This document shows, piece by piece, positions 13,891 to 23,848 of a DNA stretch of 32,000 bases. Position 1 is the stretch's first letter. Each line of letters begins with the position of its first letter. Source of the stretch: Promethearchaeia archaeon (GTDB lineage Archaea > Asgardarchaeota > Lokiarchaeia > Sigyniarchaeales > SOKP01). The notes beneath the pieces were generated by a model, which saw only the letters and a program-made list of their open reading frames with translations, was not told the origin of the DNA and searched no databases. Location of the stretch: contig JAWOFX010000041.1 of NCBI GenBank assembly GCA_046497275.1, forward strand, positions 46,279-78,278, in the 5' to 3' direction. The position numbers and the translations under genes were made by a program.

Positions 13891-15807
13891 TTAAAACATC
13901 CTTAAGGCTTCTTGTGATGAATGATTGATATCTTTTAATATTGGAATGAGAATTAATGAATTGAGAATAATAAAAGATACTAAGATAATGCCATTTAAAA
14001 GAAAAGGAATATAGAGAGGAGGAAGATTTACTCTCTCAAATAAAAATAGCGCATTAATTATCATCCCACCTGCTAAACTTGTAATAACAGCAGGTATTAA
14101 AATAAAAAAAGCTTCAAAAAACAGTATTTTTCCGATATTGATGAGTTTAGACCCTATTGATCGCATTATAAGAAAATCTTTTAATTGTTCAGCAAGATCT
14201 CCTTTTTGAAAGTGGTAAAGGGAATATAATGATACTATTGAGGTTAATATAATCAATAAAATTGAGTATAAGGACAAATAATTCAGATAAGATAGATTTA
14301 CGTTAAAATCTTGATTTAAGCACAAATAGGTAAAATCTGGTCCCAAATTAGCAGTAATATTTGATTCTAATTGATCTTCTATTTGGGAAAAAGCATTTGA
14401 TTCCATTTGTAATAGAATAATATTTATCTCATCATTAGTCAAATTCAATATTGATCTGTACTGTTCGATATCAATATAAACACTATACCCAGAATAAAAG
14501 GGATCAATTACGATTCCCGAGACTGATGAACGCTGCCCAGTTTCGAATTGCAGTTCCTGACTAAAAGCATATTCAAAAAAATTATAAGCTAATCCATCAC
14601 CTATAGTTATATTATCATCTGTGGGATTTTGACTATTAAAAAAATTACCTTCAATTTCATACTCTTGGATTAAGTTAGTTGAATTTAATCCTATAACTGG
14701 GAAAGTGCCTTCAGTATTATGTCCAATTGAAATATACTCTCCTCCCCCTGATATGATGTAGGTTTGCAGCTCCTTAATTTTTGAAAATTGAATAAGTCTT
14801 TGATCTATTTTCTCAATTCCACTGATATTGCTGATTTGATCTATTTGACTAAAGTTGAAGAGATATTGAGAGTTAGTGAAATTCACAGCATCCTCATCAA
14901 CAAAAACGGTTGGATCTGAAAACATCCTATACATAGAGGAGTAATTATTTACAATATCATTATGACCTATAACAATTATATTATTGCCTTGAGCTTTATT
15001 GATCCAATTAGATGATGATGAATTTAGAACCATCGCACCTAATCCAAGGGTGAAAAGAATCAAAGAAATAAGAAAAAAAATAAGAAAAAACCGCTTAAAC
15101 TTTCCTTTCTTCCTAGTTAAATTTAGAATCGCATATTTGACATTTAAGCCAAAAGAAGAGATCCATTTTGGAACTAGCTTCAATGGAGATGAAACATTAT
15201 AGTCCGCGGGGATATCCTCAGAAAAGCTATTAATAACTGGTTTTCTTCCAATGCGTCTTAATTGGAAGCCTGGTAACATTATTGATGCAATTGCACATGA
15301 AAAAAATAAGAGAAGCGAGAATACCAATTCAAACTCAAAACTAATAGAAAAGAGGAAAATAGAAAAAATAACTTTAAAAACTCCAAAAGAAATAAGACCT
15401 ATTATCCATCCTAGAAAAAACCCTAAAATATAAATGATAAATGCTTCAAGAAGATAAAAACTATATAATTTTTCTGGTAAAGTCCCAAGCGCCTTCATGA
15501 TTGACATATCTCTTTTTTTGCTAATAATAAATGAAGAACAGATAATTGTGACCATTAATAACGCTAAAATGAAGTTTAAGATCATTAGAAGTGTGTTGAA
15601 TTGTGTATAGACTATACTTATCGCACCGGAAAAAAAATAAGGATTGGTATAAGTCCTATCTTGTCTAATAAAATTATTCAAGTTTAATGCACTAGAAAAA
15701 TATAGTAAAAAAATGGAAATAGTTATGGTTAATGCGATAGTAATGACATATGGAAAATTTTGCTTCCTTTTTCTATAAAAATCTTTAAGTGCAAAATCCA
15801 GAGTCAT
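13891..15807 (-). CDS. FtsX/MacB-type ABC transporter permease (duplicated FtsX domains)
   Basis: Multiple TM helices, two ABC-permease signatures (KRDMSIMKALG; KDFLIMRSIG) and a large extracytoplasmic domain. Confidence 0.85.
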   Translation of the reverse strand: MTLDFALKDFYRKRKQNFPYVITIALTITISIFLLYFSSALNLNNFIRQDRTYTNPYFFSGAISIVYTQFNTLLMILNFILALLMVTIICSSFIISKKRDMSIMKALGTLPEKLYSFYLLEAFIIYILGFFLGWIIGLISFGVFKVIFSIFLFSISFEFELVFSLLLFFSCAIASIMLPGFQLRRIGRKPVINSFSEDIPADYNVSSPLKLVPKWISSFGLNVKYAILNLTRKKGKFKRFFLIFFLISLILFTLGLGAMVLNSSSSNWINKAQGNNIIVIGHNDIVNNYSSMYRMFSDPTVFVDEDAVNFTNSQYLFNFSQIDQISNISGIEKIDQRLIQFSKIKELQTYIISGGGEYISIGHNTEGTFPVIGLNSTNLIQEYEIEGNFFNSQNPTDDNITIGDGLAYNFFEYAFSQELQFETGQRSSVSGIVIDPFYSGYSVYIDIEQYRSILNLTNDEINIILLQMESNAFSQIEDQLESNITANLGPDFTYLCLNQDFNVNLSYLNYLSLYSILLIILTSIVSLYSLYHFQKGDLAEQLKDFLIMRSIGSKLINIGKILFFEAFFILIPAVITSLAGGMIINALFLFERVNLPPLYIPFLLNGIILVSFIILNSLILIPILKDINHSSQEALRMF

Positions 15808-15836
15808 AGTTTGAGTTATCTTTATTTTCTATTTTT

Positions 15837-16595
15837 TTAACTTTGAATAGATTCATTAATGATTTTACCATCATGGAACTCCAAAATTCTATCTGCCAAT
15901 TCCAATAAATACTCATCATGAGTGGCAACTAAGATCGTTTTTTCCATTTCTTTTATATCCAAAAATAAATCCCTAATGAAGATGCTTGTGTTTTTGTCTA
16001 AATTTGCAGTGGGCTCATCTGCTAAAATGATTGGGGGATCATTAGCTAAGGCTCTGGCAATCGCCACCCTTTGTTGTTCACCTGCACTTAACTGGAAGGG
16101 AAGATGTTCACGCCGTTCTGAGAGTCCCACTTCTTTCAATAAATTTACTGCTATTTCTCTCTGCTTTTTTAGTGGTGCTCCTATAAGACTAATTGGAAAC
16201 ATGACATTTTCCTCAGCTGTTAAAGTACTTATCAGATTATAATTTTGAAAGATGAATCCAGAATTGATCAAGCGAAACACAGCGAGAGATTCTTGATCCA
16301 TATCTGAGATTCTCACACCAAAAGAATAAATGTCACCTTTCGTTGGACTTACTAAACCCCCAATCAGATTAAGAAGGGTAGTTTTTCCAGCCCCCGAGGG
16401 ACCTCTAATTACTATGAATTCTCCCTCTGTAATTTCAAGATTCACCTCATCCACAGCTCTGACTATAAATTCCCCAATTTCAAAATCTTTTATAATATCG
16501 ATTGTTTTAATAACAATCTTCTTGTCTAATTGCCTTTTTGAGGTTTTTAAGTTATTATTGCTCTGATCTACTTTTAGATCGGTTGAATCCGACAT
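15837..16595 (-). CDS. ABC transporter ATP-binding protein (LolD/MacB-like)
   Basis: Walker A GPSGAGKT, FIFQNYNL, signature LSAGEQQRVAIARAL, ILADEPT, VATHD. Confidence 0.95.
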   Translation of the reverse strand: MSDSTDLKVDQSNNNLKTSKRQLDKKIVIKTIDIIKDFEIGEFIVRAVDEVNLEITEGEFIVIRGPSGAGKTTLLNLIGGLVSPTKGDIYSFGVRISDMDQESLAVFRLINSGFIFQNYNLISTLTAEENVMFPISLIGAPLKKQREIAVNLLKEVGLSERREHLPFQLSAGEQQRVAIARALANDPPIILADEPTANLDKNTSIFIRDLFLDIKEMEKTILVATHDEYLLELADRILEFHDGKIINESIQS

Positions 16596-16862
16596 AATTT
16601 ATTCTCTACCTTACTACAAGAAAACAAGTTTTTTCTAATTAATTAATATCTTTTAAAATAAATAGATTTTTATTTATCTAATTTCATTTGGAAGTGTTTT
16701 AATATTTAAATCAAATAGTTTTCTAAATAAGGTAGAATGAGAATTTGAAAAATTTGATAATAAGGTTTTTAAGTATCTTCTACTTATTTATAATTCAGAG
16801 AGAAATATAGCGAAATTGCGGAATAATATCCCCTAAAAATTAGCTCTTTGCAAATATCTTGC

Positions 16863-16884
16863 TAATTAGGGAATTTCCTAATTA
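16863..16884. promoter_or_regulatory. Near-perfect palindrome TAATTAGGGAATTTCCTAATTA in a divergent intergenic region
   Basis: 8-bp perfect arms plus a nearly complementary centre, between the ABC operon and the corrinoid protein gene. Confidence 0.4.
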
Positions 16885-17123
16885 AATGGTATAACTAAAT
16901 TTTATCCCAAAACTTGTTTAAAGTTTTTGCGATTTTGCTTTTTTCTCTTTCTCTTTCTTTTTTCTAATATGATTAGATCCAATCTCATGAAAATATTATA
17001 TTTTTATACTTTAAAGACAAATAGACTATTAAAATAAAGTTTACTAAAATTTAGATAAAATTAAGTTTAATAGTAAATTTATTGATATAATTTTGAATAA
17101 AAAAGAAGAGATTAGGATAATTA

Positions 17124-17756
17124 ATGGAATTTGAACAATTGACAGAATTGATAATAGAACTTGAATGTGACGATATTCAAGAGGCTGTAAAAGAAGCTTT
17201 AGGGGAGGGAAAGGATCCTTTTGAAGTGCTTAATGCATTAACGGAAGGAATGGATGAGGTGGGAAGAAGATATGAGGAAAAGGAATATTATTTAACTGAG
17301 CTCGTTCTCGCAGGAGAAACGATGAAAGAAGCCTTCACAGTTTTACAACCCGCTTTAGCCAAAGCGGATCAAACTCAGGTTAAAACGAAAGTTATTCTTG
17401 CTACAGTGAAAGGAGATAACCATGATATTGGAAAAAATATATTAGCCTCTCTACTTTTAAGTTCTGGGTTTGAAATTCATGACCTTGGGATGGATGTGGG
17501 CGAAAAAGAAATTGTAGAAAAGGTTAAAGAAATAAATGCAGATATCGTGGCATTAAGCACTCTCCTCACAATGACAGTGGAACAAATAAAAGTTGTGGAT
17601 CAAGCTCTTAAAGATGCAGGCTTAAGAGATAATGTGAAGCTTATTGTTGGAGGCGCACCTCTCAATGAGGAATTAGCTAAAGAATTAGGCGCGGATGATT
17701 TTGCAGAGGACGCTGTTGAAGGAGTTAAACATATTAAAGCCTTAGCTGGAAATTAA
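17124..17756 (+). CDS. Cobalamin-binding (corrinoid) protein, MtaC/MtbC/MttC-like
   Basis: N-terminal B12 cap domain (GMDEVGRRYE...YLTELVLAGETM) and B12-binding motifs GDNHDIGKN (DxHxxG), DLGMDV, LSTLLT, VGGAP. Confidence 0.93.
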   Translation: MEFEQLTELIIELECDDIQEAVKEALGEGKDPFEVLNALTEGMDEVGRRYEEKEYYLTELVLAGETMKEAFTVLQPALAKADQTQVKTKVILATVKGDNHDIGKNILASLLLSSGFEIHDLGMDVGEKEIVEKVKEINADIVALSTLLTMTVEQIKVVDQALKDAGLRDNVKLIVGGAPLNEELAKELGADDFAEDAVEGVKHIKALAGN

Positions 17757-17760
17757 AACA

Positions 17761-17795
17761 TTCTTATTCTTTATTTTTCCTTTTTTTTGATTTTA
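17761..17795 (+). terminator. Oligo-T terminator after the corrinoid gene
   Basis: TTCTTTATTTTTCCTTTTTTTT directly after the stop. Suggests the tusA operon is transcribed separately. Confidence 0.5.
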
Positions 17796-17964: not shown

Positions 17965-18219
17965 ATGAGTGAAGAAAAAACAGAAGAACCGCTTTTTGAT
18001 GTTGAATTAGATACAAGAGGGTTGTTTTGTCCTGAACCTTTATTTGAAATAAGAAATCTCTCAGAGGAATTGGAAATTGGTCAATGTTTTAAAGTGATCG
18101 CGGATGATCCCGCTGCTGAGGAAGATTTTAAAAGGTGGGCAAAACGAACAGATACAGATATTATTGATTTCAGTAAAAAAGGAGACGACTTAATATTCTA
18201 TTTCAAGAAGAAAAAATAA
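17965..18219 (+). CDS. tusA: TusA/SirA-family sulfur carrier protein
   Basis: LDTRGLFCPEP (CPxP), ADDPAAEEDFKRWA. SD AGGAGGT upstream. Confidence 0.92.
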   Translation: MSEEKTEEPLFDVELDTRGLFCPEPLFEIRNLSEELEIGQCFKVIADDPAAEEDFKRWAKRTDTDIIDFSKKGDDLIFYFKKKK

Positions 18220-18233
18220 TGAGGTGAAAAAGC

Positions 18234-18593
18234 ATGGAAAAAAAACATCTTTTATATGTTCAAACCACAGATGCTTCTGAAAAGCAATATTCCCCATTAG
18301 TATTAGCCCAAATGGCTGTAGCAATGGATTTAAAGGCGACAGTATATTACTTGGGAACAGGGTTAAAAATCTTAAAACTGGGTGAGGCGGAGAAAATTAA
18401 ACTAGGAAATTTTCCAAGTGTGAGAGAGATGATTGATCAAACAAAAGAAGCAGGCGTGGAAATTTTAGTCTGTGAAGCATCAAAACGTATGTTAGGATGG
18501 GAGAGTGTTGAGTTAATCCCTAGAGTGAAAATAGTTGGGGCTGCGACCCTAAATGATTTGGTGTTGGAAGCAGATGGAACAATGTGGTTTTAA
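18234..18593 (+). CDS. DsrE/DsrF-family sulfur relay protein
   Basis: PLVLAQMAVAMD..ATVYYLGTG, GVEILVCEAS (conserved Cys), IVGAATL. SD GAGGTGA. Confidence 0.85.
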   Translation: MEKKHLLYVQTTDASEKQYSPLVLAQMAVAMDLKATVYYLGTGLKILKLGEAEKIKLGNFPSVREMIDQTKEAGVEILVCEASKRMLGWESVELIPRVKIVGAATLNDLVLEADGTMWF

Positions 18594-18629
18594 TTAATCA
18601 AAAATAAAAAACAAAATTGAGGTTAAAAA

Positions 18630-19823
18630 ATGGAAATATATTTGGATTATCAATCGGCAAAACCGGTTGATCCCAGAGTTATAGAAGAGATGATACCCTA
18701 TTTTACTGATAAATTCGGGAATCCAGCATCATTACACAACGTCGGTGATCAAGCTACTGAAGCTCTCAATCATTCTAGAAAACAGATTAAAGATTTCTTG
18801 AATGCCTCTGAGGATTCGAAAATAGTTTTTACATCCGGTGCGACAGAATCCAATAATCTTGCTTTAATTGGAACTGCTAGGAGATATAAAAATAAGGGAA
18901 ATCATATCATTATTTCAGAAATTGAGCATATTTCAATTCGAAATCTCGCGAAATATTTGGAGAGAGAAGGTTTTAAGGTTAGTAAAATCCCCGTAGACCA
19001 ATTTGGGGTCATAAAACTCGCTAAATTAAAGAATTTAATCACTGAAAATACTATTCTTATTTCTATTTCTACTGCGAGTAACGAAATCGGTTCAATCCAA
19101 CCATATGAAGAGATCAGTAAAATTGCTAAGGAGAATAATATAATTTTTCACACAGATGCAATTGCAAGTGAATCAGCATTACCGATTAAAGTGGAAGAAA
19201 CACCGTTTGATCTTATAACATTATCCTCAAATGATATATATGGTCCAAAAGGAGTAGGCGCGTTATATCTTCGAAAAGGTTTGCGCTTAAATCCCGTTTT
19301 AATTGGTGGTGGACAAGAATTTGGTATGAGATCTGGATCTCATAATTTGCCTGGAATAGTTGGATTTGGGAAAGCTGCGGAAATTATGAAGAGAGAAATG
19401 ATTTCTGAAGATAAAAGACTTTCAGAATATAGAGATTTATTAATTAAAGAGGTAATAGATAAAATTCCAAAATCCTATCTCAATGGGCATCCGACTAAAC
19501 GATTAGCTCATAATGCTCACTTTCGTTTCGATTATATTGAGGGAGAATCGTTAATTCTTGATTTAAAAGAAAATAATATAGCTGCAGCAACAGGCTCAGC
19601 GTGCTCATCCAAAACATTGGAACCATCACACACTTTAATTTCTTGTGGATTGTTACATGAAGAAGCACATGGAAGCTTATTATTTACATTAGGGAGATTT
19701 ACTCAAAAAGAAGAAATCAATAAAGTGATTGAAATATTACCTGGGATTGTAAAGAGATTGAGGTTATTATCTCCACTTACTCCTCCTGAAATTTTAAAAA
19801 AATATAATGAGGTGAAAAATTAA
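18630..19823 (+). CDS. iscS: IscS/NifS-family protein, non-canonical (PLP lysine replaced by Asp)
   Basis: YLDYQSAKP, GNPAS, FTSGATESNN, SEIEH, NEIGSIQP, HTDA, SSNDIYGPKGVGAL, GGGQE, TGSACSS. Confidence 0.93.
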   Translation: MEIYLDYQSAKPVDPRVIEEMIPYFTDKFGNPASLHNVGDQATEALNHSRKQIKDFLNASEDSKIVFTSGATESNNLALIGTARRYKNKGNHIIISEIEHISIRNLAKYLEREGFKVSKIPVDQFGVIKLAKLKNLITENTILISISTASNEIGSIQPYEEISKIAKENNIIFHTDAIASESALPIKVEETPFDLITLSSNDIYGPKGVGALYLRKGLRLNPVLIGGGQEFGMRSGSHNLPGIVGFGKAAEIMKREMISEDKRLSEYRDLLIKEVIDKIPKSYLNGHPTKRLAHNAHFRFDYIEGESLILDLKENNIAAATGSACSSKTLEPSHTLISCGLLHEEAHGSLLFTLGRFTQKEEINKVIEILPGIVKRLRLLSPLTPPEILKKYNEVKN

Positions 19824-19824
19824 A

Positions 19825-20616
19825 ATGAAATCAACCCAATACACTGAAAAAGTAATGGATCATTTTAGAAATCCTCGAAATGTCGGCATTATTGAAAATC
19901 CTGATGGATATGGAAAAGTTGGAAACCCTGTATGCGGAGATTTAATGGAAATGTTTATAAATGTGGAAAAAGATGAACAAGGAGAGGAATTTATTGAAGA
20001 CATTAAATTTAGAACCTTTGGATGTGGATCTGCTGTCGCAACCTCTTCAATGATAACTGAAATGGCTATGGGGATGAATCTTGATGAAGCTTATAAAATT
20101 ACAAGAAACGATGTAGCAGATGAGCTTGAGGGCTTACCCCCAATAAAAATGCATTGTTCGAATCTTGCAGCTGATGCATTAAAGGCAGCGATTGATAACT
20201 ATAGAAAAGGTACAGAGCCAGAAGTTCAAGTTCAAGCTTCATGTAAACCTATCGATATAAAAATCATTTTAGGTTTGGATGAGTTTCTAGGAAAAGGAGT
20301 TTATGAAAAACTTCCAGATTTGGAAGAATTAAAAGATAAACGCACTCTGATTGTTGATTCAAATGAAAAAGCATTAGAATTCGCTATTGAATTAACAGAT
20401 TATACGAATAGAGTTATTGTAACTACTAATAGAGATGAAATTCCTGGTTCAGAAGAGATGAGAAAAAAGTTAAAATTCTCCGATGTAAAAATATTGAGAC
20501 AATCAGAATTAATAGAAATTCAAGGTACTGACAGTGTTGAGAAGGTTCTAATCCATGATTTGGATGAGGATGAAAATTATGAACTATTTGTTGATTCTGT
20601 AATCATATTAAAATAA
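19825..20616 (+). CDS. iscU: IscU Fe-S scaffold fused to a C-terminal thioredoxin-reductase-like Rossmann domain
   Basis: YTEKVMDHFRNPRNVG, GNPVCGD, FGCGSAVATSS, KMHCSNLA (three Cys), followed by about 120 extra residues. Confidence 0.92.
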   Translation: MKSTQYTEKVMDHFRNPRNVGIIENPDGYGKVGNPVCGDLMEMFINVEKDEQGEEFIEDIKFRTFGCGSAVATSSMITEMAMGMNLDEAYKITRNDVADELEGLPPIKMHCSNLAADALKAAIDNYRKGTEPEVQVQASCKPIDIKIILGLDEFLGKGVYEKLPDLEELKDKRTLIVDSNEKALEFAIELTDYTNRVIVTTNRDEIPGSEEMRKKLKFSDVKILRQSELIEIQGTDSVEKVLIHDLDEDENYELFVDSVIILK

Positions 20617-20874
20617 TTTTTATTTTAATTCTTTATTTAGTTGGATTTTTAAAAATAGAATAAAATCTAAATCCTTTATTGGGATAAATAAGATCGCTTA
20701 GTTATAATAGAAGAAGTATTATATATATTATAATAAATCATAATCTAATCATTTTTTAATTTTTATAATTCTAATTCTTCAAGGTAATTTTTTTTTAATT
20801 TATAATAAGAAGAATTAAACATAATCTAGAAATACACACAATAACAAAATTAAAATAATTTTATTGTGAAAGCT

Positions 20875-21216
20875 ATGAAAAATAGTAAAGAATTATTACA
20901 AGAAATACAAGATACTATGAATTCTTTTGGAAAAATTAATCCCGAGGCTATGGAAGGATTTAAAAAATTCATGGATACCTCAAAACAAGATGGTGCGTTA
21001 TCAAAAAAGATGAAAGAAATAATCGGTGTTGCACTTTCGGTAAGCAAGCAATGCGAATGGTGTGTAGCACTCCACATTAGGCAGGCTTTACAAGCAGGTG
21101 CTACGAAGGAAGAGATCATGGAAGCATGTTTGGTTGCAGCAATGATGGGTGGAGGGCCCTCATTAATGTTCACGAAAAATGTATTGCAATCAATAGAAGA
21201 TTTTACTAAAAAATAA
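20875..21216 (+). CDS. Carboxymuconolactone decarboxylase/AhpD-like protein with CxxC
   Basis: GALSKKMKEIIGVALSV, CEWCVALH, AGATKEEIMEA, MGGGP. ATG 20875 preferred over GTG 20866 because the GTGA there acts as an SD. Confidence 0.88.
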   Translation: MKNSKELLQEIQDTMNSFGKINPEAMEGFKKFMDTSKQDGALSKKMKEIIGVALSVSKQCEWCVALHIRQALQAGATKEEIMEACLVAAMMGGGPSLMFTKNVLQSIEDFTKK

Positions 21217-21234
21217 ATAAAAGGTGTTTATAAA

Positions 21235-21627
21235 ATGGTAGATTTTTTAAAAAAAGAGTTGGATATGGATTTTGATAAAGCAGTTAAAAAAGTAGAAACT
21301 ATTGTTGAGGAAGAAGGATTTAGTCTGTTGTTGACGAAAGATCTTGATAAGATTTTCAAGAAAAATTTGGGAGTAGATTATTCAAGATATACTATGATTT
21401 TAGCCTGTGCTCCTGAATTCGCAAAAGGGGCTTTAGATGTTTCAAAGAATGTGGGTTTACTCTTTCCTTGTAGTTTTGTGGTATATGAAGACCAAGGGAA
21501 AGTTTTTGTCTCTCACATATCTATTATGAAAATAGCTCCTGAAATTGAGCTTGCTTCTGCAGATGAGATGCAGCCAGTGATTGATATGACGGGAGAAGCA
21601 GTCCATAAAGCATGGGACAGACTTTAA
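21235..21627 (+). CDS. DUF302 domain protein
   Basis: EEEGFSLL, ILACAP, GLLFPCSFVVYE. Confidence 0.82.
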   Translation: MVDFLKKELDMDFDKAVKKVETIVEEEGFSLLLTKDLDKIFKKNLGVDYSRYTMILACAPEFAKGALDVSKNVGLLFPCSFVVYEDQGKVFVSHISIMKIAPEIELASADEMQPVIDMTGEAVHKAWDRL

Positions 21628-21758
21628 TAATTAAATATTTTTTCTTTTTATTTAGGGGTATCGATACTTATTCTTCTATTTTTAAAATATAAAAGGTAGG
21701 CTTTAATCAAAAGGAAGTCTATTTCTAAATCAAATAATAAATTATAATTGGTGAGATT

Positions 21759-21881
21759 ATGACAAATGTAGGAGAAGTTTATAAATGTGAGAAATGTGGA
21801 AATGTAGTCAAAGTAATCGAAGAAGGATTTGGCACATTGGTGTGTTGCGGAGAAGATATGGTATTAGTAGAAGAAGAGTAG
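21759..21881 (+). CDS. Stand-alone desulforedoxin (40 aa)
   Basis: Manual translation [40 protein letters not shown] shows CxxC...CC. SD GGTGA. Below the ORF-track length cutoff. Confidence 0.93.
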
Positions 21882-22003
21882 GCATTCTTCTGGTAAAAAG
21901 CTTTACTTCAATTATTCTTAAATTCTTATTTTTTCTTTAAATGGGTGACTAGTATAAGTAGAAAATAAAAAAATATTTAGATTAAAATTACTGATGAATA
22001 TTT

Positions 22004-22384
22004 TTAGCTAACTTTTTCTTCATTTCTCCAGAGTCCGTGAATGTTACAATAACTAAATGCAATAATAGTCCCTGGTTTTTCAGTTTTAAATCTCATTGTC
22101 GCCTCTGGTTCGCAATAGATGGTTGATGTATTAGGTCCTTCTACAGATTCTCCATGTGCGTTAAACTCACATTTACCTATTTCATAGGGATATTTCTCTC
22201 CATCCGGGTGGAATAGCGCCTTAATCCATCTAATATGATGTTCTGTGGTATTTGGATGACCTATCTCCTCTCCAACATGGAGTCTAACTGTGACCATATC
22301 TCCCTTCTTAGCCATATCAATAACGGGCACATGCTTTTCCTTCTTCCAGTCTGCCTCTTGATAAAGTTCGTTATAATCTACCAT
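22004..22384 (-). CDS. sor: Superoxide reductase (1Fe, neelaredoxin type)
   Basis: EKHVP, HPNTTEHHIRWI, CNIHGLW ligand motifs. Confidence 0.95.
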   Translation of the reverse strand: MVDYNELYQEADWKKEKHVPVIDMAKKGDMVTVRLHVGEEIGHPNTTEHHIRWIKALFHPDGEKYPYEIGKCEFNAHGESVEGPNTSTIYCEPEATMRFKTEKPGTIIAFSYCNIHGLWRNEEKVS

Positions 22385-22612
22385 TTTTTATAACCTCTTA
22401 TTATAGTTTTCTAATCCTCAAATTTCTTGGATATCGATATTTAAAAAAGGAATAAAATCGTTTAAAAAATTATTTTTAATAAATTATTAAGTTTTGGAGG
22501 GGAGAATCTTTTAAATCTATTTTTGAAAATAGGTGGCTAAGAGATTGATATTCCAATTTTATTCCAATAAGATTTTGAAAAAATTATGTATCCGAAATAG
22601 TATAAAAAAAAA

Positions 22613-23848
22613 TTATATTAGTTGAATACTAGAAGGAAATACCGCAGCTTTTGGAGGTTCCGGATATTCTGTACTTAATTCATTAATTAGATCATCCCAT
22701 TCGTTAAATAATTTAACATCTTTAGGGAAAAAATGATATAAATCTGGCTCACTAATGTTTGGTGAGAAGAATAATATCTTTCTTTTTTTAACAAATGCTT
22801 TCCATATAACACTATCTCCTAAATTATTATATAATTTGGCTCCAGTCTCAGCGATTAAACTATGATATCCTCTTCCTTCATAGGATGATGACATGAGTAC
22901 TATATGCCCTCTTCTATTTAACATTTTATTTGGCGCAGTCATCAACGCATTAAAACCTTTAACTGACTGATTTAATTCTGAGTCTTCGGGAAAGAGATTG
23001 AAAAAACAAATGTCATTATCTAAGGTAACTTCTGTGGAATAAGCTTCAGTCGCCAATTCCATCGCTTTTCGATGAGATTGTCTAAAATCTCCCGCTGTGA
23101 TCCCAGAGATATCGCCTTTTTCGGTTAAAATCAAATTGATTGAGAAATCTAGTCCGACTATATCTGCAATTTCTTCTATATCTTCACGAACTCCAGTCAT
23201 TCGACCGATGCCTGCTCCTATTCCCCTCATTGCAGCAGAATGATTCGCTTCTAATGTCCGGATTCCACATACTCCAGGGAGGACTATTTTTGCACCACCT
23301 CCAAATCCCGCTAATGGATGTGGAATTACACCCCCGACAGAAATTTTGAGGTCAGCATTACAATACGTTGTATTGACATCTATAGGAGTACCAATATTTG
23401 ATTCTCCAAAATTAGTGAGATTTTCATAAGGATGATGGTTTTCAATATTTAATGTATCTACAACATCTTTCCCTAATTTTAGAATTTGATCCTCCTTCAT
23501 CATTGGTTTATGGGCTCCTAAAGCAAAAAGAATGGTAATCTGTTCTCGTGAAATTCCACCTTGCTTAAGTTCCTCAAGAATATAAGGCATTAATAGGGAT
23601 ACAGGAGTGGTTCGTGTCATGTCATCAACAACAATTACAATTTTCTCCTTTCCTTTTGCTAATTCTGATAATTTAGGTGTTCCGATGGGATTTAAAATAC
23701 CTTGCGCAAGCTGATTCCCAGATAATACGGGTCCATTCCATTTATTCATTTTACAAACATTTACTTCCCAAGATTCTGGAAAAGAAATTTCAAGAAATTC
23801 GGGATCTCGCCATGCTGCCCATGGGATTCTAATTTTATTTTTTGACAT
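22613..23848 (-). CDS. LarA-family nickel-pincer-dependent 2-hydroxy acid racemase/epimerase
   Basis: VDDMTRTTP, ALGAH, ENHHP, GTPIDVN, PHPLAGFGGGAKIVLPG, ANH. Confidence 0.85.
   Translation of the reverse strand: MSKNKIRIPWAAWRDPEFLEISFPESWEVNVCKMNKWNGPVLSGNQLAQGILNPIGTPKLSELAKGKEKIVIVVDDMTRTTPVSLLMPYILEELKQGGISREQITILFALGAHKPMMKEDQILKLGKDVVDTLNIENHHPYENLTNFGESNIGTPIDVNTTYCNADLKISVGGVIPHPLAGFGGGAKIVLPGVCGIRTLEANHSAAMRGIGAGIGRMTGVREDIEEIADIVGLDFSINLILTEKGDISGITAGDFRQSHRKAMELATEAYSTEVTLDNDICFFNLFPEDSELNQSVKGFNALMTAPNKMLNRRGHIVLMSSSYEGRGYHSLIAETGAKLYNNLGDSVIWKAFVKKRKILFFSPNISEPDLYHFFPKDVKLFNEWDDLINELSTEYPEPPKAAVFPSSIQLI

What the first reader, a model, noticed from the sequence alone, without database searches (positions are those of the whole stretch)
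17965..20616. tusA-dsrE-iscS*-iscU* operon: candidate desulfurase-independent Fe-S assembly fed by a sulfur relay
Four tightly packed genes (gaps 14, 36 and 1 nt), each with a strong SD. TusA (CPEP) and DsrE (VCEAS) are established persulfide carriers that normally receive sulfur from IscS. Here IscS lacks the PLP lysine but keeps its loop Cys. The flow may therefore be reversed: environmental or metabolic sulfane sulfur to DsrE/TusA, then to the IscS Cys, then to IscU, with the fused IscU domain docking a reductant. That would suit a sulfidic anoxic habitat. I know of no described system with this four-part combination, but cannot search to confirm.
Basis: partly seen in the sequence, partly recalled or inferred. 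Interest (0 to 1): 0.82.

Follow-up and report, generated by a model that had tools for sequence, protein, structure and literature searches.

The report
Sulfur-carrier genes joined to lysine-less IscS-IscU
A Lokiarchaeal four-gene operon joins two small sulfur-carrier proteins (TusA, DsrE) to an iron-sulfur assembly pair whose "cysteine desulfurase" has lost its catalytic lysine. The same link holds wherever such lysine-less enzymes were sampled, including the crystallised Archaeoglobus pair, so it gives a testable answer to where that pair gets its sulfur.

Summary
Four co-oriented genes (gaps 14, 36 and 1 nt), each with a GAGG-type ribosome-binding site, encode TusA (CPEP), a DsrE3-like protein (VCEAS), an IscS reading SSNDIYGPKG (Asp for the PLP lysine, loop Cys kept) and an IscU with a C-terminal tail.

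The Lys-to-Asp IscS is not new. It is about 60% identical to Archaeoglobus fulgidus IscS2 (PDB 4EB5), which is reported to lack desulfurase activity.

The gene linkage goes beyond the literature I could search. Of 192 IscS-type loci, 82 of 93 lysine-less genes had tusA and/or dsrE beside them, against 0 of 99 lysine-bearing ones. Both A. fulgidus loci are among the linked ones. On a tree the lysine-less genes form essentially one old clade, so this is long-kept synteny, not repeated co-evolution.

The IscU tail is a degenerate NADPH-domain remnant of a CxxC-less thioredoxin-reductase-like flavoprotein. That flavoprotein is still fused whole to IscU in Jordarchaeia and some Halobacteriota.

"Desulfurase-independent" is not shown, because this genome also has a normal Lys-bearing IscS and a plain IscU. 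The direction of sulfur flow is inferred.

This scan has reported the same module at least eight times on other genomes.

The parts
17774..17788 (+). Oligo-T runs after the upstream corrinoid-protein gene; likely archaeal terminator marking the 5' boundary of the unit
17965..18219 (+). tusA: 84-aa TusA-family sulfur carrier; Cys22 (codon 18028-18030) in CPEP; DDPAAEED motif
   Evidence: Pfam PF01206 63.6 bits. Best solved relatives are E. coli TusA 1DCJ/3LVJ at 2.2e-6. Cys, Pro and DDP are invariant in 31 orthologues.
18234..18593 (+). dsrE-like: 119-aa DsrE3-type carrier; Cys80 (codon 18471-18473) in VCEAS
   Evidence: Pfam PF02635/PF13686. Best solved relative is 3MC3 (S. solfataricus SSO1125, a DsrE3A trimer) at 2.2e-13, with the Cys aligned. 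Present in 19 of 30 same-family operons, so it is an optional member.
18630..19823 (+). iscS*: lysine-less IscS/MisS; Asn201-Asp202 (Asp codon 19233-19235) replace the His-Lys of SxHK; HTDAIA replaces HxDAxQ; loop Cys325 (codon 19602-19604) kept
   Evidence: phmmer against PDB 4EB5_A, E 1e-132, motif SSNDIYGPKG identical. NCBIfam NifS/IscS scores are below the equivalog cut-offs.
19825..20214 (+). iscU scaffold domain (residues 1-130): Cys37, Asp39, Cys67, His110, Cys111, LPPIK
   Evidence: NifU_N 2e-45. TIGR03419 scores 191.5, over its cut-off of 187.9. PDB 7C8M 2.4e-57 and 4EB5_C 9e-45.
20260..20613 (+). IscU C-terminal tail (residues about 146-263): remnant of the NADPH domain of a CxxC-less TrxR/FNR-like flavoprotein. 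CxxC and GxGxxA are lost and there is no FAD domain.
   Evidence: The AF2 model has tail pLDDT of about 90 and a disordered linker at 132-145. Foldseek matches TrxR/FNR NADPH domains at E about 1e-10 and rmsd about 1.8 A. The tail is 36% identical (E 1e-18) to residues 269-374 of the 448-aa IscU-TrxR-like fusion L052. Alignment A5.
20617..20650 (+). Oligo-T runs directly after the iscU stop; likely terminator marking the 3' boundary of the unit

Best explanation
The four genes form one operon for an Archaeoglobus-type 'minimal ISC' iron-sulfur assembly complex with its own sulfur relay. IscS* has no PLP lysine, so it cannot take sulfur from cysteine. It pairs with IscU as a structural partner and lends its loop Cys325, as in the solved A. 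fulgidus (IscS-IscU)2 complex. TusA (Cys22) and, where present, the DsrE3-like protein (Cys80) carry sulfane sulfur as persulfides and hand it to IscS* Cys325 and/or to the IscU cysteines, replacing the missing desulfurase step in cis. The ultimate source of that sulfur is unresolved: it could be environmental or metabolic sulfane sulfur, or cysteine through the genome's separate Lys-bearing IscS. The IscU tail is a vestige of a fused TrxR/FNR-like flavoprotein. In Jordarchaeia and some Halobacteriota that flavoprotein is still complete and is the likely electron donor. In this genome the tail can bind neither FAD nor NAD(P)H and is at most a structural or docking module. Shown here: genes, residues, fold, and conserved, specific synteny. 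Inferred: persulfide carriage, direction of flow, sulfur source, role of the tail.
For: IscS* aligns to A. fulgidus IscS2 (4EB5/4EB7/4HVK) at E 1e-132 with an identical SSNDIYGPKG motif. That protein is reported to lack desulfurase activity and to supply a Cys ligand to the [2Fe-2S] cluster on IscU (PMC7585200; PMC13066941). IscU has all its cluster ligands. Operon anatomy is consistent with one transcript. Synteny: tusA is present in 30 of 30 same-family loci and dsrE in 19 of 30. Other Asgard families, Bathyarchaeales and a Thermoplasmata genome carry the same order. In a 301-genome sample of the phylum holding the Methanolobus genome G201, all 27 lysine-less loci among the 30 best matches have tusA and/or dsrE. 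Both A. fulgidus loci are linked: L216 has tusA-dsrE-iscS-iscU and L240 (AF0564) has dsrE-iscS2-iscU. Paralogous Lys-bearing loci show nothing: 0 of 21 in the same Asgard family, and none among the Lys-bearing loci (nearly all of the 80 fetched) in other genomes, mostly bacterial. Overall, 82 of 93 lysine-less loci are linked against 0 of 99 Lys-bearing loci. Lysine-less variants with other residues (NS, SA, QG) are also linked. The carrier cysteines are invariant across orthologues. Full-length IscU-TrxR-like fusions sit in the same operon position.
Against: There is no biochemical evidence for any step. On the tree, the lysine-less state needs only about 3 changes, so the linkage is essentially one inherited arrangement, and the independent-pairs test has only 2-3 pairs and is not significant. 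DsrE is dispensable in a third of close relatives. Several lysine-less loci lack both carriers within 1.5 kb on the same strand: 11 of 93, some at contig ends or with other contexts. The genome has a normal IscS and IscU and an SMS-type SufB, so this operon need not be the main Fe-S route. Free sulfide could serve IscU directly without carriers. My loci were chosen as best matches, not at random.
Confidence: 0.6

Rival explanations
1. Desulfurase-dependent in trans. Sulfur still comes from cysteine via the genome's Lys-bearing IscS/NifS (or SufS in sister families). TusA/DsrE shuttle that persulfide to a dedicated IscS*-IscU scaffold complex.
For: A canonical IscS (SAHKIYGPKG, NifS model 519 bits) and a plain IscU exist in this genome. 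Nearly all same-family genomes have both paralogues. Sister-family genomes have a SufS-like gene. In E. coli, TusA is a known acceptor of IscS persulfide (PDB 3LVJ; PMC13066941).
Against: tusA/dsrE are never next to the Lys-bearing paralogue (0 of 21; 0 of 99). The active paralogue has its own IscU nearby in several genomes.
Confidence: 0.22
2. IscS*-IscU builds clusters from free sulfide, and TusA/DsrE do something else at the complex. They might buffer or detoxify reactive sulfane sulfur, regulate assembly, or carry sulfur away from the complex to thio-cofactor or tRNA thiolation pathways.
For: MIS and SMS systems are reported to be able to use sulfide (PMC13066941; PMC12192291). DsrE is optional. 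The genome has other TusA/DsrE clusters beside YeeE/YedE-type transporters, so these carriers serve several routes.
Against: The tight, translationally coupled position upstream of iscS*, kept across phyla and only beside lysine-less enzymes, is hard to explain if the carriers do not compensate for the lost step.
Confidence: 0.13
3. The linkage is only inherited gene order in one old clade, with no functional coupling.
For: The lysine-less genes form essentially one clade, and the independent-pairs test is not significant.
Against: The order persists at about 50% IscS and 35-45% TusA identity across at least four archaeal phyla, while the flanking genes differ. One variant has the rearranged order iscS*-dsrE-tusA and still keeps the set together.
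Confidence: 0.05

Closest known systems
Archaeoglobus fulgidus IscS2-IscU (AF0564 with NifU-1; PDB 4EB5, 4EB7, 4HVK; D199K variant 4R5F)
   Same: IscS has Asp for the PLP lysine with an identical SSNDIYGPKG motif, keeps the loop Cys, and is about 60% identical over the full length. It has an adjacent IscU. A dsrE-like gene lies directly upstream of AF0564, and tusA-dsrE lie upstream of the second A. fulgidus copy.
   Different: The published work I could read treats only IscS and IscU and does not mention the carriers. A. fulgidus IscU (153-156 aa) has no TrxR-like tail.
Methanosarcina acetivorans isc1 cluster (IscS1 MA0808, IscU1 MA0807) in PMC7585200
   Same: IscS1 lacks PLP-binding residues. 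IscU1 is enlarged (24.2 kDa). [quoted passage not shown]
   Different: The accessory genes were not named or interpreted in the main text. IscS1 was insoluble and was not studied. I did not fetch this locus myself.
MIS (minimal ISC) system of Garcia et al. 2022, as reviewed in PMC13066941
   Same: A two-gene IscS-like plus IscU-like core in an anaerobic archaeon, without chaperones or carriers of the ISC type.
   Different: MIS is described as having an active cysteine desulfurase and no additional components, and its electron donor is called unknown. Here the desulfurase lysine is missing, two sulfur carriers are attached, and related operons fuse a flavoprotein to the scaffold.
E. coli IscS-TusA sulfur relay (PDB 3LVJ) and TusBCD/DsrEFH
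   Same: The same protein families with the same carrier cysteines: TusA CPxP, and DsrE/TusD Cys at about position 78-80.
   Different: In E. coli, sulfur flows from an active IscS to TusA and on to tRNA thiolation. Here IscS cannot generate persulfide, so any flow must run towards it or bypass it. The TusA scores below the E. coli TusA equivalog cut-off (43 against 78 bits).
DsrE3A/TusA of Metallosphaera cuprina and sHdr systems (PMC4175335, PMC11094781)
   Same: A small DsrE3-type protein paired with TusA. The closest solved structure, 3MC3, is a DsrE3A.
   Different: Those pairs feed dissimilatory sulfur oxidation (Hdr-like complexes). No such genes are present here.

Membership tests
Lysine-less (A. 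fulgidus IscS2-type) IscS | IscS/NifS-type class-V aminotransferase fold and sequence | tested here: met
   Aminotran_5 2.6e-72; 4EB5_A E 1e-132 over residues 4-383
Lysine-less (A. fulgidus IscS2-type) IscS | Schiff-base lysine replaced (Asp), with neighbouring His to Asn and Gln of HxDAxQ lost | tested here: met
   SSNDIYGPKG and HTDAIA
Lysine-less (A. fulgidus IscS2-type) IscS | Flexible-loop cysteine retained | tested here: met
   Cys325 in GSACSS; invariant in 34 orthologues
Lysine-less (A. fulgidus IscS2-type) IscS | No PLP bound and no cysteine desulfurase activity | not testable with these tools
   Needs purified protein; known for A. fulgidus only through cited literature
IscU/NifU-N scaffold | Three Cys, Asp and His cluster ligands; score over the curated cut-off | tested here: met
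   C37, D39, C67, H110, C111; TIGR03419 191.5 against 187.9
TusA family (PF01206) | Pfam score over cut-off and the conserved Cys-Pro-x-Pro carrier cysteine | tested here: met
   63.6 against 28.6 bits; Cys22 invariant
E. coli TusA equivalog (NF001423) | Score over the equivalog cut-off | tested here: not met
   43.4 against 78 bits; a family member, not the tRNA-thiolation orthologue
DsrE/DsrE3-type sulfur transferase | Pfam DsrE over cut-off and active-site Cys aligned with DsrE3A | tested here: met
   54.2 against 22.7 bits; Cys80 aligns with the Cys of 3MC3
DsrE2 equivalog (NF047629) | Score over the equivalog cut-off | tested here: not met
   35.8 against 210 bits
Low-Mr thioredoxin reductase / TrxR-like FNR (for the IscU tail) | NADPH-domain fold | tested here: met
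   Foldseek E about 1e-10, about 119 aligned columns, rmsd about 1.8 A
Low-Mr thioredoxin reductase / TrxR-like FNR (for the IscU tail) | FAD-binding domain, GxGxxA NADPH loop and (for TrxR) CxxC | tested here: not met
   No FAD halves; DSNEKA in place of GGGxxA; EKLP in place of CxxC. The tail is a remnant, not a reductase.
MIS (minimal ISC) system | Active cysteine desulfurase plus scaffold, with no further components | tested here: not met
   The catalytic Lys is absent, and two carrier genes are part of the operon. It works like MIS at the scaffold step only.

The most novel reading that the evidence does not exclude
A cysteine-independent route into Fe-S assembly. Sulfane sulfur from the environment or from metabolism (for example thiosulfate or polysulfide taken up by the genome's YeeE/YedE-type transporters) is carried as persulfide by DsrE and TusA to the loop cysteine of a PLP-free IscS and on to IscU. 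In some archaea a flavoprotein fused to IscU supplies the electrons. That would be a distinct, widespread, ancient kind of sulfur entry into Fe-S biogenesis in anaerobes.
Probability: 0.33. Interest if true: 0.8.

Novelty: new variant of a known kind. Interest (0 to 1): 0.6.

Why it matters
The A. fulgidus IscS-IscU complex has been solved for over a decade, yet the papers I could read give no account of where its sulfur comes from. Reviews still describe the minimal ISC system as two proteins with an unknown electron donor (PMC13066941). The carrier genes sit next to the crystallised proteins and next to every sampled relative, and some lineages fuse a complete flavoprotein to IscU. This turns both open questions (sulfur donor and electron donor) into direct bench experiments with four or five small proteins. 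It also bears on how Fe-S clusters were made before cysteine desulfurases, and on Fe-S biogenesis in the Asgard relatives of eukaryotes.

Tried and rejected
1. Complex prediction with two copies of IscS* plus TusA gave no verdict (score 0.00, controls not run). It counts neither for nor against binding.

3. Literature searches for TusA with cysteine desulfurase and Asgard, for TusA/DsrE with IscS/IscU in archaea, for AF locus tags and for IscU-TrxR fusions found no paper describing the linkage. Subscription papers are not in the library, notably the A. fulgidus papers, Garcia et al. 2022 and the Tanabe/Dahl TusA review, so absence is not proven.

4. A selenium-trafficking reading (YedF-like TusA, a lead from PMC11097638) was dropped. 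The TusA scores far below the YedF cut-offs, and the partner genes are IscS and IscU.

5. The idea that sister families lack any desulfurase was tested and rejected. They carry a SufS-like gene.

6. The independent-pairs test of co-evolution on the IscS tree had too few independent transitions to say anything.

7. My first regex classification of the PLP motif failed on many sequences. I replaced it with an alignment-based read-out.

8. The conserved upstream corrinoid protein with its ABC transporter, and the downstream CoADR-rhodanese-TusA gene seen in close relatives, are not kept in other families, so I did not count them as parts of the module.
Full report
**Observation.** The window holds four co-oriented ORFs at the stated coordinates: 17965-18219 (84 aa), 18234-18593 (119 aa), 18630-19823 (397 aa) and 19825-20616 (263 aa). 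The gaps are 14, 36 and 1 nt. Pfam names them TusA, DsrE/DrsE_2, Aminotran_5 (IscS/NifS type) and NifU_N with a weak Pyr_redox hit on the tail. NCBIfam agrees. Each start has a GAGG(T) motif 7-9 nt upstream. No run of six or more T lies inside the unit, while oligo-T runs follow both the upstream gene and the iscU stop. The quoted motifs are present: TusA CPEP (Cys22), DsrE VCEAS (Cys80), IscS SSNDIYGPKG with Asp202 at the lysine position, HTDAIA for HxDAxQ, and the loop Cys325.

**The organism.** The window lies in a 3.85-Mb, 98.9%-complete genome. Its closest protein relatives are named Lokiarchaeota or Promethearchaeota.

**What is already known.** IscS* aligns over its whole length with A. 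fulgidus IscS2 (PDB 4EB5, 4EB7, 4HVK) at E 1e-132, with the identical motif. 4R5F is the Asp-to-Lys variant of that protein. According to PMC7585200, the A. fulgidus protein lacks desulfurase activity because of this substitution and supplies a cysteine ligand to the [2Fe-2S] cluster on IscU. PMC13066941 describes the same structure. The IscU domain has all cluster ligands and matches archaeal IscU structures (7C8M at 2.4e-57, 4EB5_C at 9e-45).

**Linkage to tusA and dsrE.**
- I searched 201 genomes of the same phylum with IscS*, and 165 had a match.
- All 30 best loci, from the window's own family, carry tusA (CPEP) directly upstream of an ND (once NE) IscS followed by a tailed IscU. A dsrE gene lies between them in 19 of the 30.
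- Other Asgard families show the same order. Some have TusA CPQP with a tailed IscU, others a plain IscU. Two families showed no carrier within 3 kb.
- Most genomes of the window's family hold a second, Lys-bearing paralogue (SAHK/SGHK). None of 21 such loci has tusA or dsrE within 3 kb.
- A scan of one-genome-per-species contigs returned 80 loci. The Lys-bearing ones, which made up most of the set and came mostly from bacteria, had no carrier gene within 4 kb. Every ND locus with intact upstream sequence had one, including a Bathyarchaeales genome. A Thermoplasmata genome also has tusA-dsrE-iscS(ND)-iscU.
- I sampled 301 genomes of the phylum that holds the Methanolobus genome G201. Among the 30 best loci, all 27 ND loci had tusA and/or dsrE adjacent.
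- One of these genomes has a single 2,178,400-bp contig whose IscS matches the 4EB5 chain, except for at least one residue. Its first locus reads tusA-dsrE-iscS(ND)-iscU. Its second (AF0564, the crystallised protein) reads dsrE(94 aa)-iscS2-iscU.
- Among the 150 nearest 50%-identity cluster representatives, 19 lack the lysine, with various residue pairs (ND, NS, SA, GP, SD, QG, QQ, HT and others). All of them also lack the Gln of HxDAxQ.
- Contexts of seven of these representatives:

| Representative | Residues at the His-Lys position | Context |
|---|---|---|
| P0241 | ND | tusA-iscS* |
| P0243 | NS | tusA-dsrE-iscS*-iscU |
| P0245 | SA | dsrE-iscS*-iscU |
| P0280 | QG | iscS*-dsrE-tusA |
| P0261 | SD | no carrier genes nearby |
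| P0306 | QQ | no carrier genes nearby |
| P0251 | GP | gene at a contig end; context unknown |

- Pooled over 192 distinct IscS-type genes from all fetched loci, 82 of 93 lysine-less genes have a carrier on the same strand within 1.5 kb. None of 99 Lys-bearing genes does.

**How much that association is worth.** A FastTree phylogeny of the 192 proteins needs only about three changes of the lysine state (two forced by supported branches). The lysine-less genes are therefore essentially one clade. The independent-pairs test has only 2-3 pairs and is not significant. The 82-to-0 contrast is not 82 independent events. It is one arrangement kept across at least four archaeal phyla, at about 50% IscS identity and 35-45% TusA identity. 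The flanking genes differ between families, and one variant has a permuted order. Such retention is the usual signature of functional coupling, but it does not give direction or mechanism. My loci were best matches, not a random sample.

**The IscU tail.** 346 database proteins match the tail, nearly all 262-270 aa and from Loki, Promethearchaeota or Thor bins.
- An AlphaFold2 model from 49 sequences (mean pLDDT 83.6) shows two domains joined by a disordered linker at 132-145.
- Foldseek matches the tail to the NADPH domain of low-Mr thioredoxin reductases and TrxR-like ferredoxin-NADP reductases: E about 1e-10, about 119 columns, rmsd about 1.8 A. Sequence search agrees (2ZBW, 3LZW).
- The CxxC position reads EKLP, the GxGxxA loop reads DSNEKA, and no FAD-binding halves exist.
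- In one Asgard family, named Freyarchaeum or Jordarchaeaceae by NCBI records, IscU is 448 aa. It carries NifU_N plus a complete Pyr_redox_2 flavoprotein with a GGGPAG FAD loop and a GNGDQA NADPH loop, but no CxxC.
- Two genomes of the Archaeoglobus/Methanolobus phylum sample have 443-444-aa fusions directly after iscS(ND).
- The window's tail is 36% identical (E 1e-18) to residues 269-374 of the 448-aa fusion, which is closer than to generic TrxRs. In a joint alignment it covers exactly the central NADPH-domain segment, and both FAD halves are missing.
- My reading: an IscU fused to a CxxC-less TrxR/FNR-like reductase is the older or fuller form, and the Loki/Thor tail is its degenerate remnant.
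- The full-length fusion is a candidate for the electron donor, which the review calls unknown for MIS. The remnant in this window cannot itself be a reductase. Whether it docks anything is untested.

**Is the organism desulfurase-independent? No.**
- The same genome encodes a 397-aa IscS/NifS with SAHKIYGPKG and an intact Cys loop (NifS model 519 bits). It also has a plain 126-aa IscU 6 kb away and a third NifU_N hit.
- It has a SufB-type (SMS) gene.
- Sister-family genomes with a single IscS-type gene carry a SufS-like gene.
- So the operon lacks its own desulfurase, but cysteine-derived sulfur could still reach it in trans.
- The genome also has two further carrier clusters. One has a full YeeE/YedE-type Sulf_transp gene with TusA and three DsrE-like ORFs. 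The other has a split Sulf_transp, three TusA, DsrE-like genes and an AIR-synthase-related (possibly SelD-like) gene. These show a wider persulfide network and a possible uptake route, but they are not linked to the operon by any test here.

**Mechanism.**
- Most likely (0.6): TusA, with or without DsrE, delivers persulfide sulfur to IscS* Cys325 and/or IscU. This replaces the lost PLP chemistry in cis, and IscS*-IscU then assembles a [2Fe-2S] cluster as in 4EB5.
- Rivals: the sulfur comes from the active paralogue via the carriers (0.22). Or free sulfide feeds IscU and the carriers buffer, regulate or export sulfur (0.13). Or the synteny has no function (0.05).

**Novelty.** I found no open paper that describes the carriers as part of this system. 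[quoted passage not shown] The arrangement has therefore been seen but not explained. Key subscription papers could not be searched. Within this scan, the same module has been reported at least eight times on other genomes, including an Asgard genome and one with a TrxR-like IscU tail. I reached the Archaeoglobus and paralogue contrasts independently before reading those notes. Relative to the literature this is a new variant of a known kind, not a new kind. What this window adds is the Asgard context and the remnant-versus-whole series for the IscU-flavoprotein fusion.

Noticed in passing
L052:4900-6246; L219:156-1490; L220:164-1495: Full-length IscU fused to a complete CxxC-less TrxR/FNR-like flavoprotein (443-448 aa), in a Jordarchaeial family and in two genomes of the Archaeoglobus/Methanolobus phylum sample, in the lysine-less iscS operon. 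One NCBI record annotates only the last 326 aa, as 'NAD(P)/FAD-dependent oxidoreductase' (P0391), and so misses the IscU domain.
   Followed up: partly
L054:4177-5760: In one Asgard family the IscU gene is interrupted by an intein with a LAGLIDADG homing endonuclease (527 aa; NifU_N split around Intein_splicing and LAGLIDADG_3).
   Followed up: partly
L062:7251-9188; L063; L064:6792-9188; L065:6369-8750: Four close Loki relatives carry a gene of about 793 aa for a CoA-disulfide-reductase-like flavoprotein with two rhodanese domains and a TusA domain. It lies 0.4-1.3 kb downstream of iscU and is a candidate persulfide/polysulfide reductase. It is absent at this position in the window.
   Followed up: partly
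G000 contig C143 (L245:3974-6304) and C114 (L244:1888-5849): Two more sulfur-carrier clusters lie in the same genome. One has a YeeE/YedE-type Sulf_transp with TusA and three DsrE-like ORFs. The other has a split Sulf_transp, three TusA, DsrE-like genes and an AIR-synthase-related (possibly SelD-like) gene. They may serve thiosulfate or selenium uptake and relay.
   Followed up: partly
window 13891-17756: An FtsX-type ABC permease, an ABC ATPase (both on the - strand) and a 210-aa corrinoid (B12-binding) protein (+) lie upstream of tusA. The same arrangement is found in three close relatives, with a spacer of about 200 nt and T-runs. I read this as local synteny and not as part of the operon.
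   Followed up: partly
window 20866-23848: Downstream lie an AhpD/CMD-family protein with CEWC, a DUF302 protein, a neelaredoxin/desulfoferrodoxin-family protein (- strand) and a LarA-N-domain protein (- strand). The neighbourhood has a redox and oxidative-stress flavour. It is not conserved next to the operon in other families.
   Followed up: partly
L067, L070, L094; L210-L214: Operons 61-62% identical to the window's, with the tailed IscU, sit on contigs labelled 'uncultured Actinomycetes' or 'Spirochaetota', and in five genomes of the Methanolobus/Archaeoglobus phylum sample. This could be mis-binning, mislabelling or lateral transfer of the cassette.
   Followed up: no
L240:2704-2988: The DsrE-like ORF directly upstream of A. 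fulgidus AF0564 is only 94 aa from its first start codon, against 119 aa at the other A. fulgidus locus. No tusA was found beside it. The copy may be N-terminally shortened.
   Followed up: no
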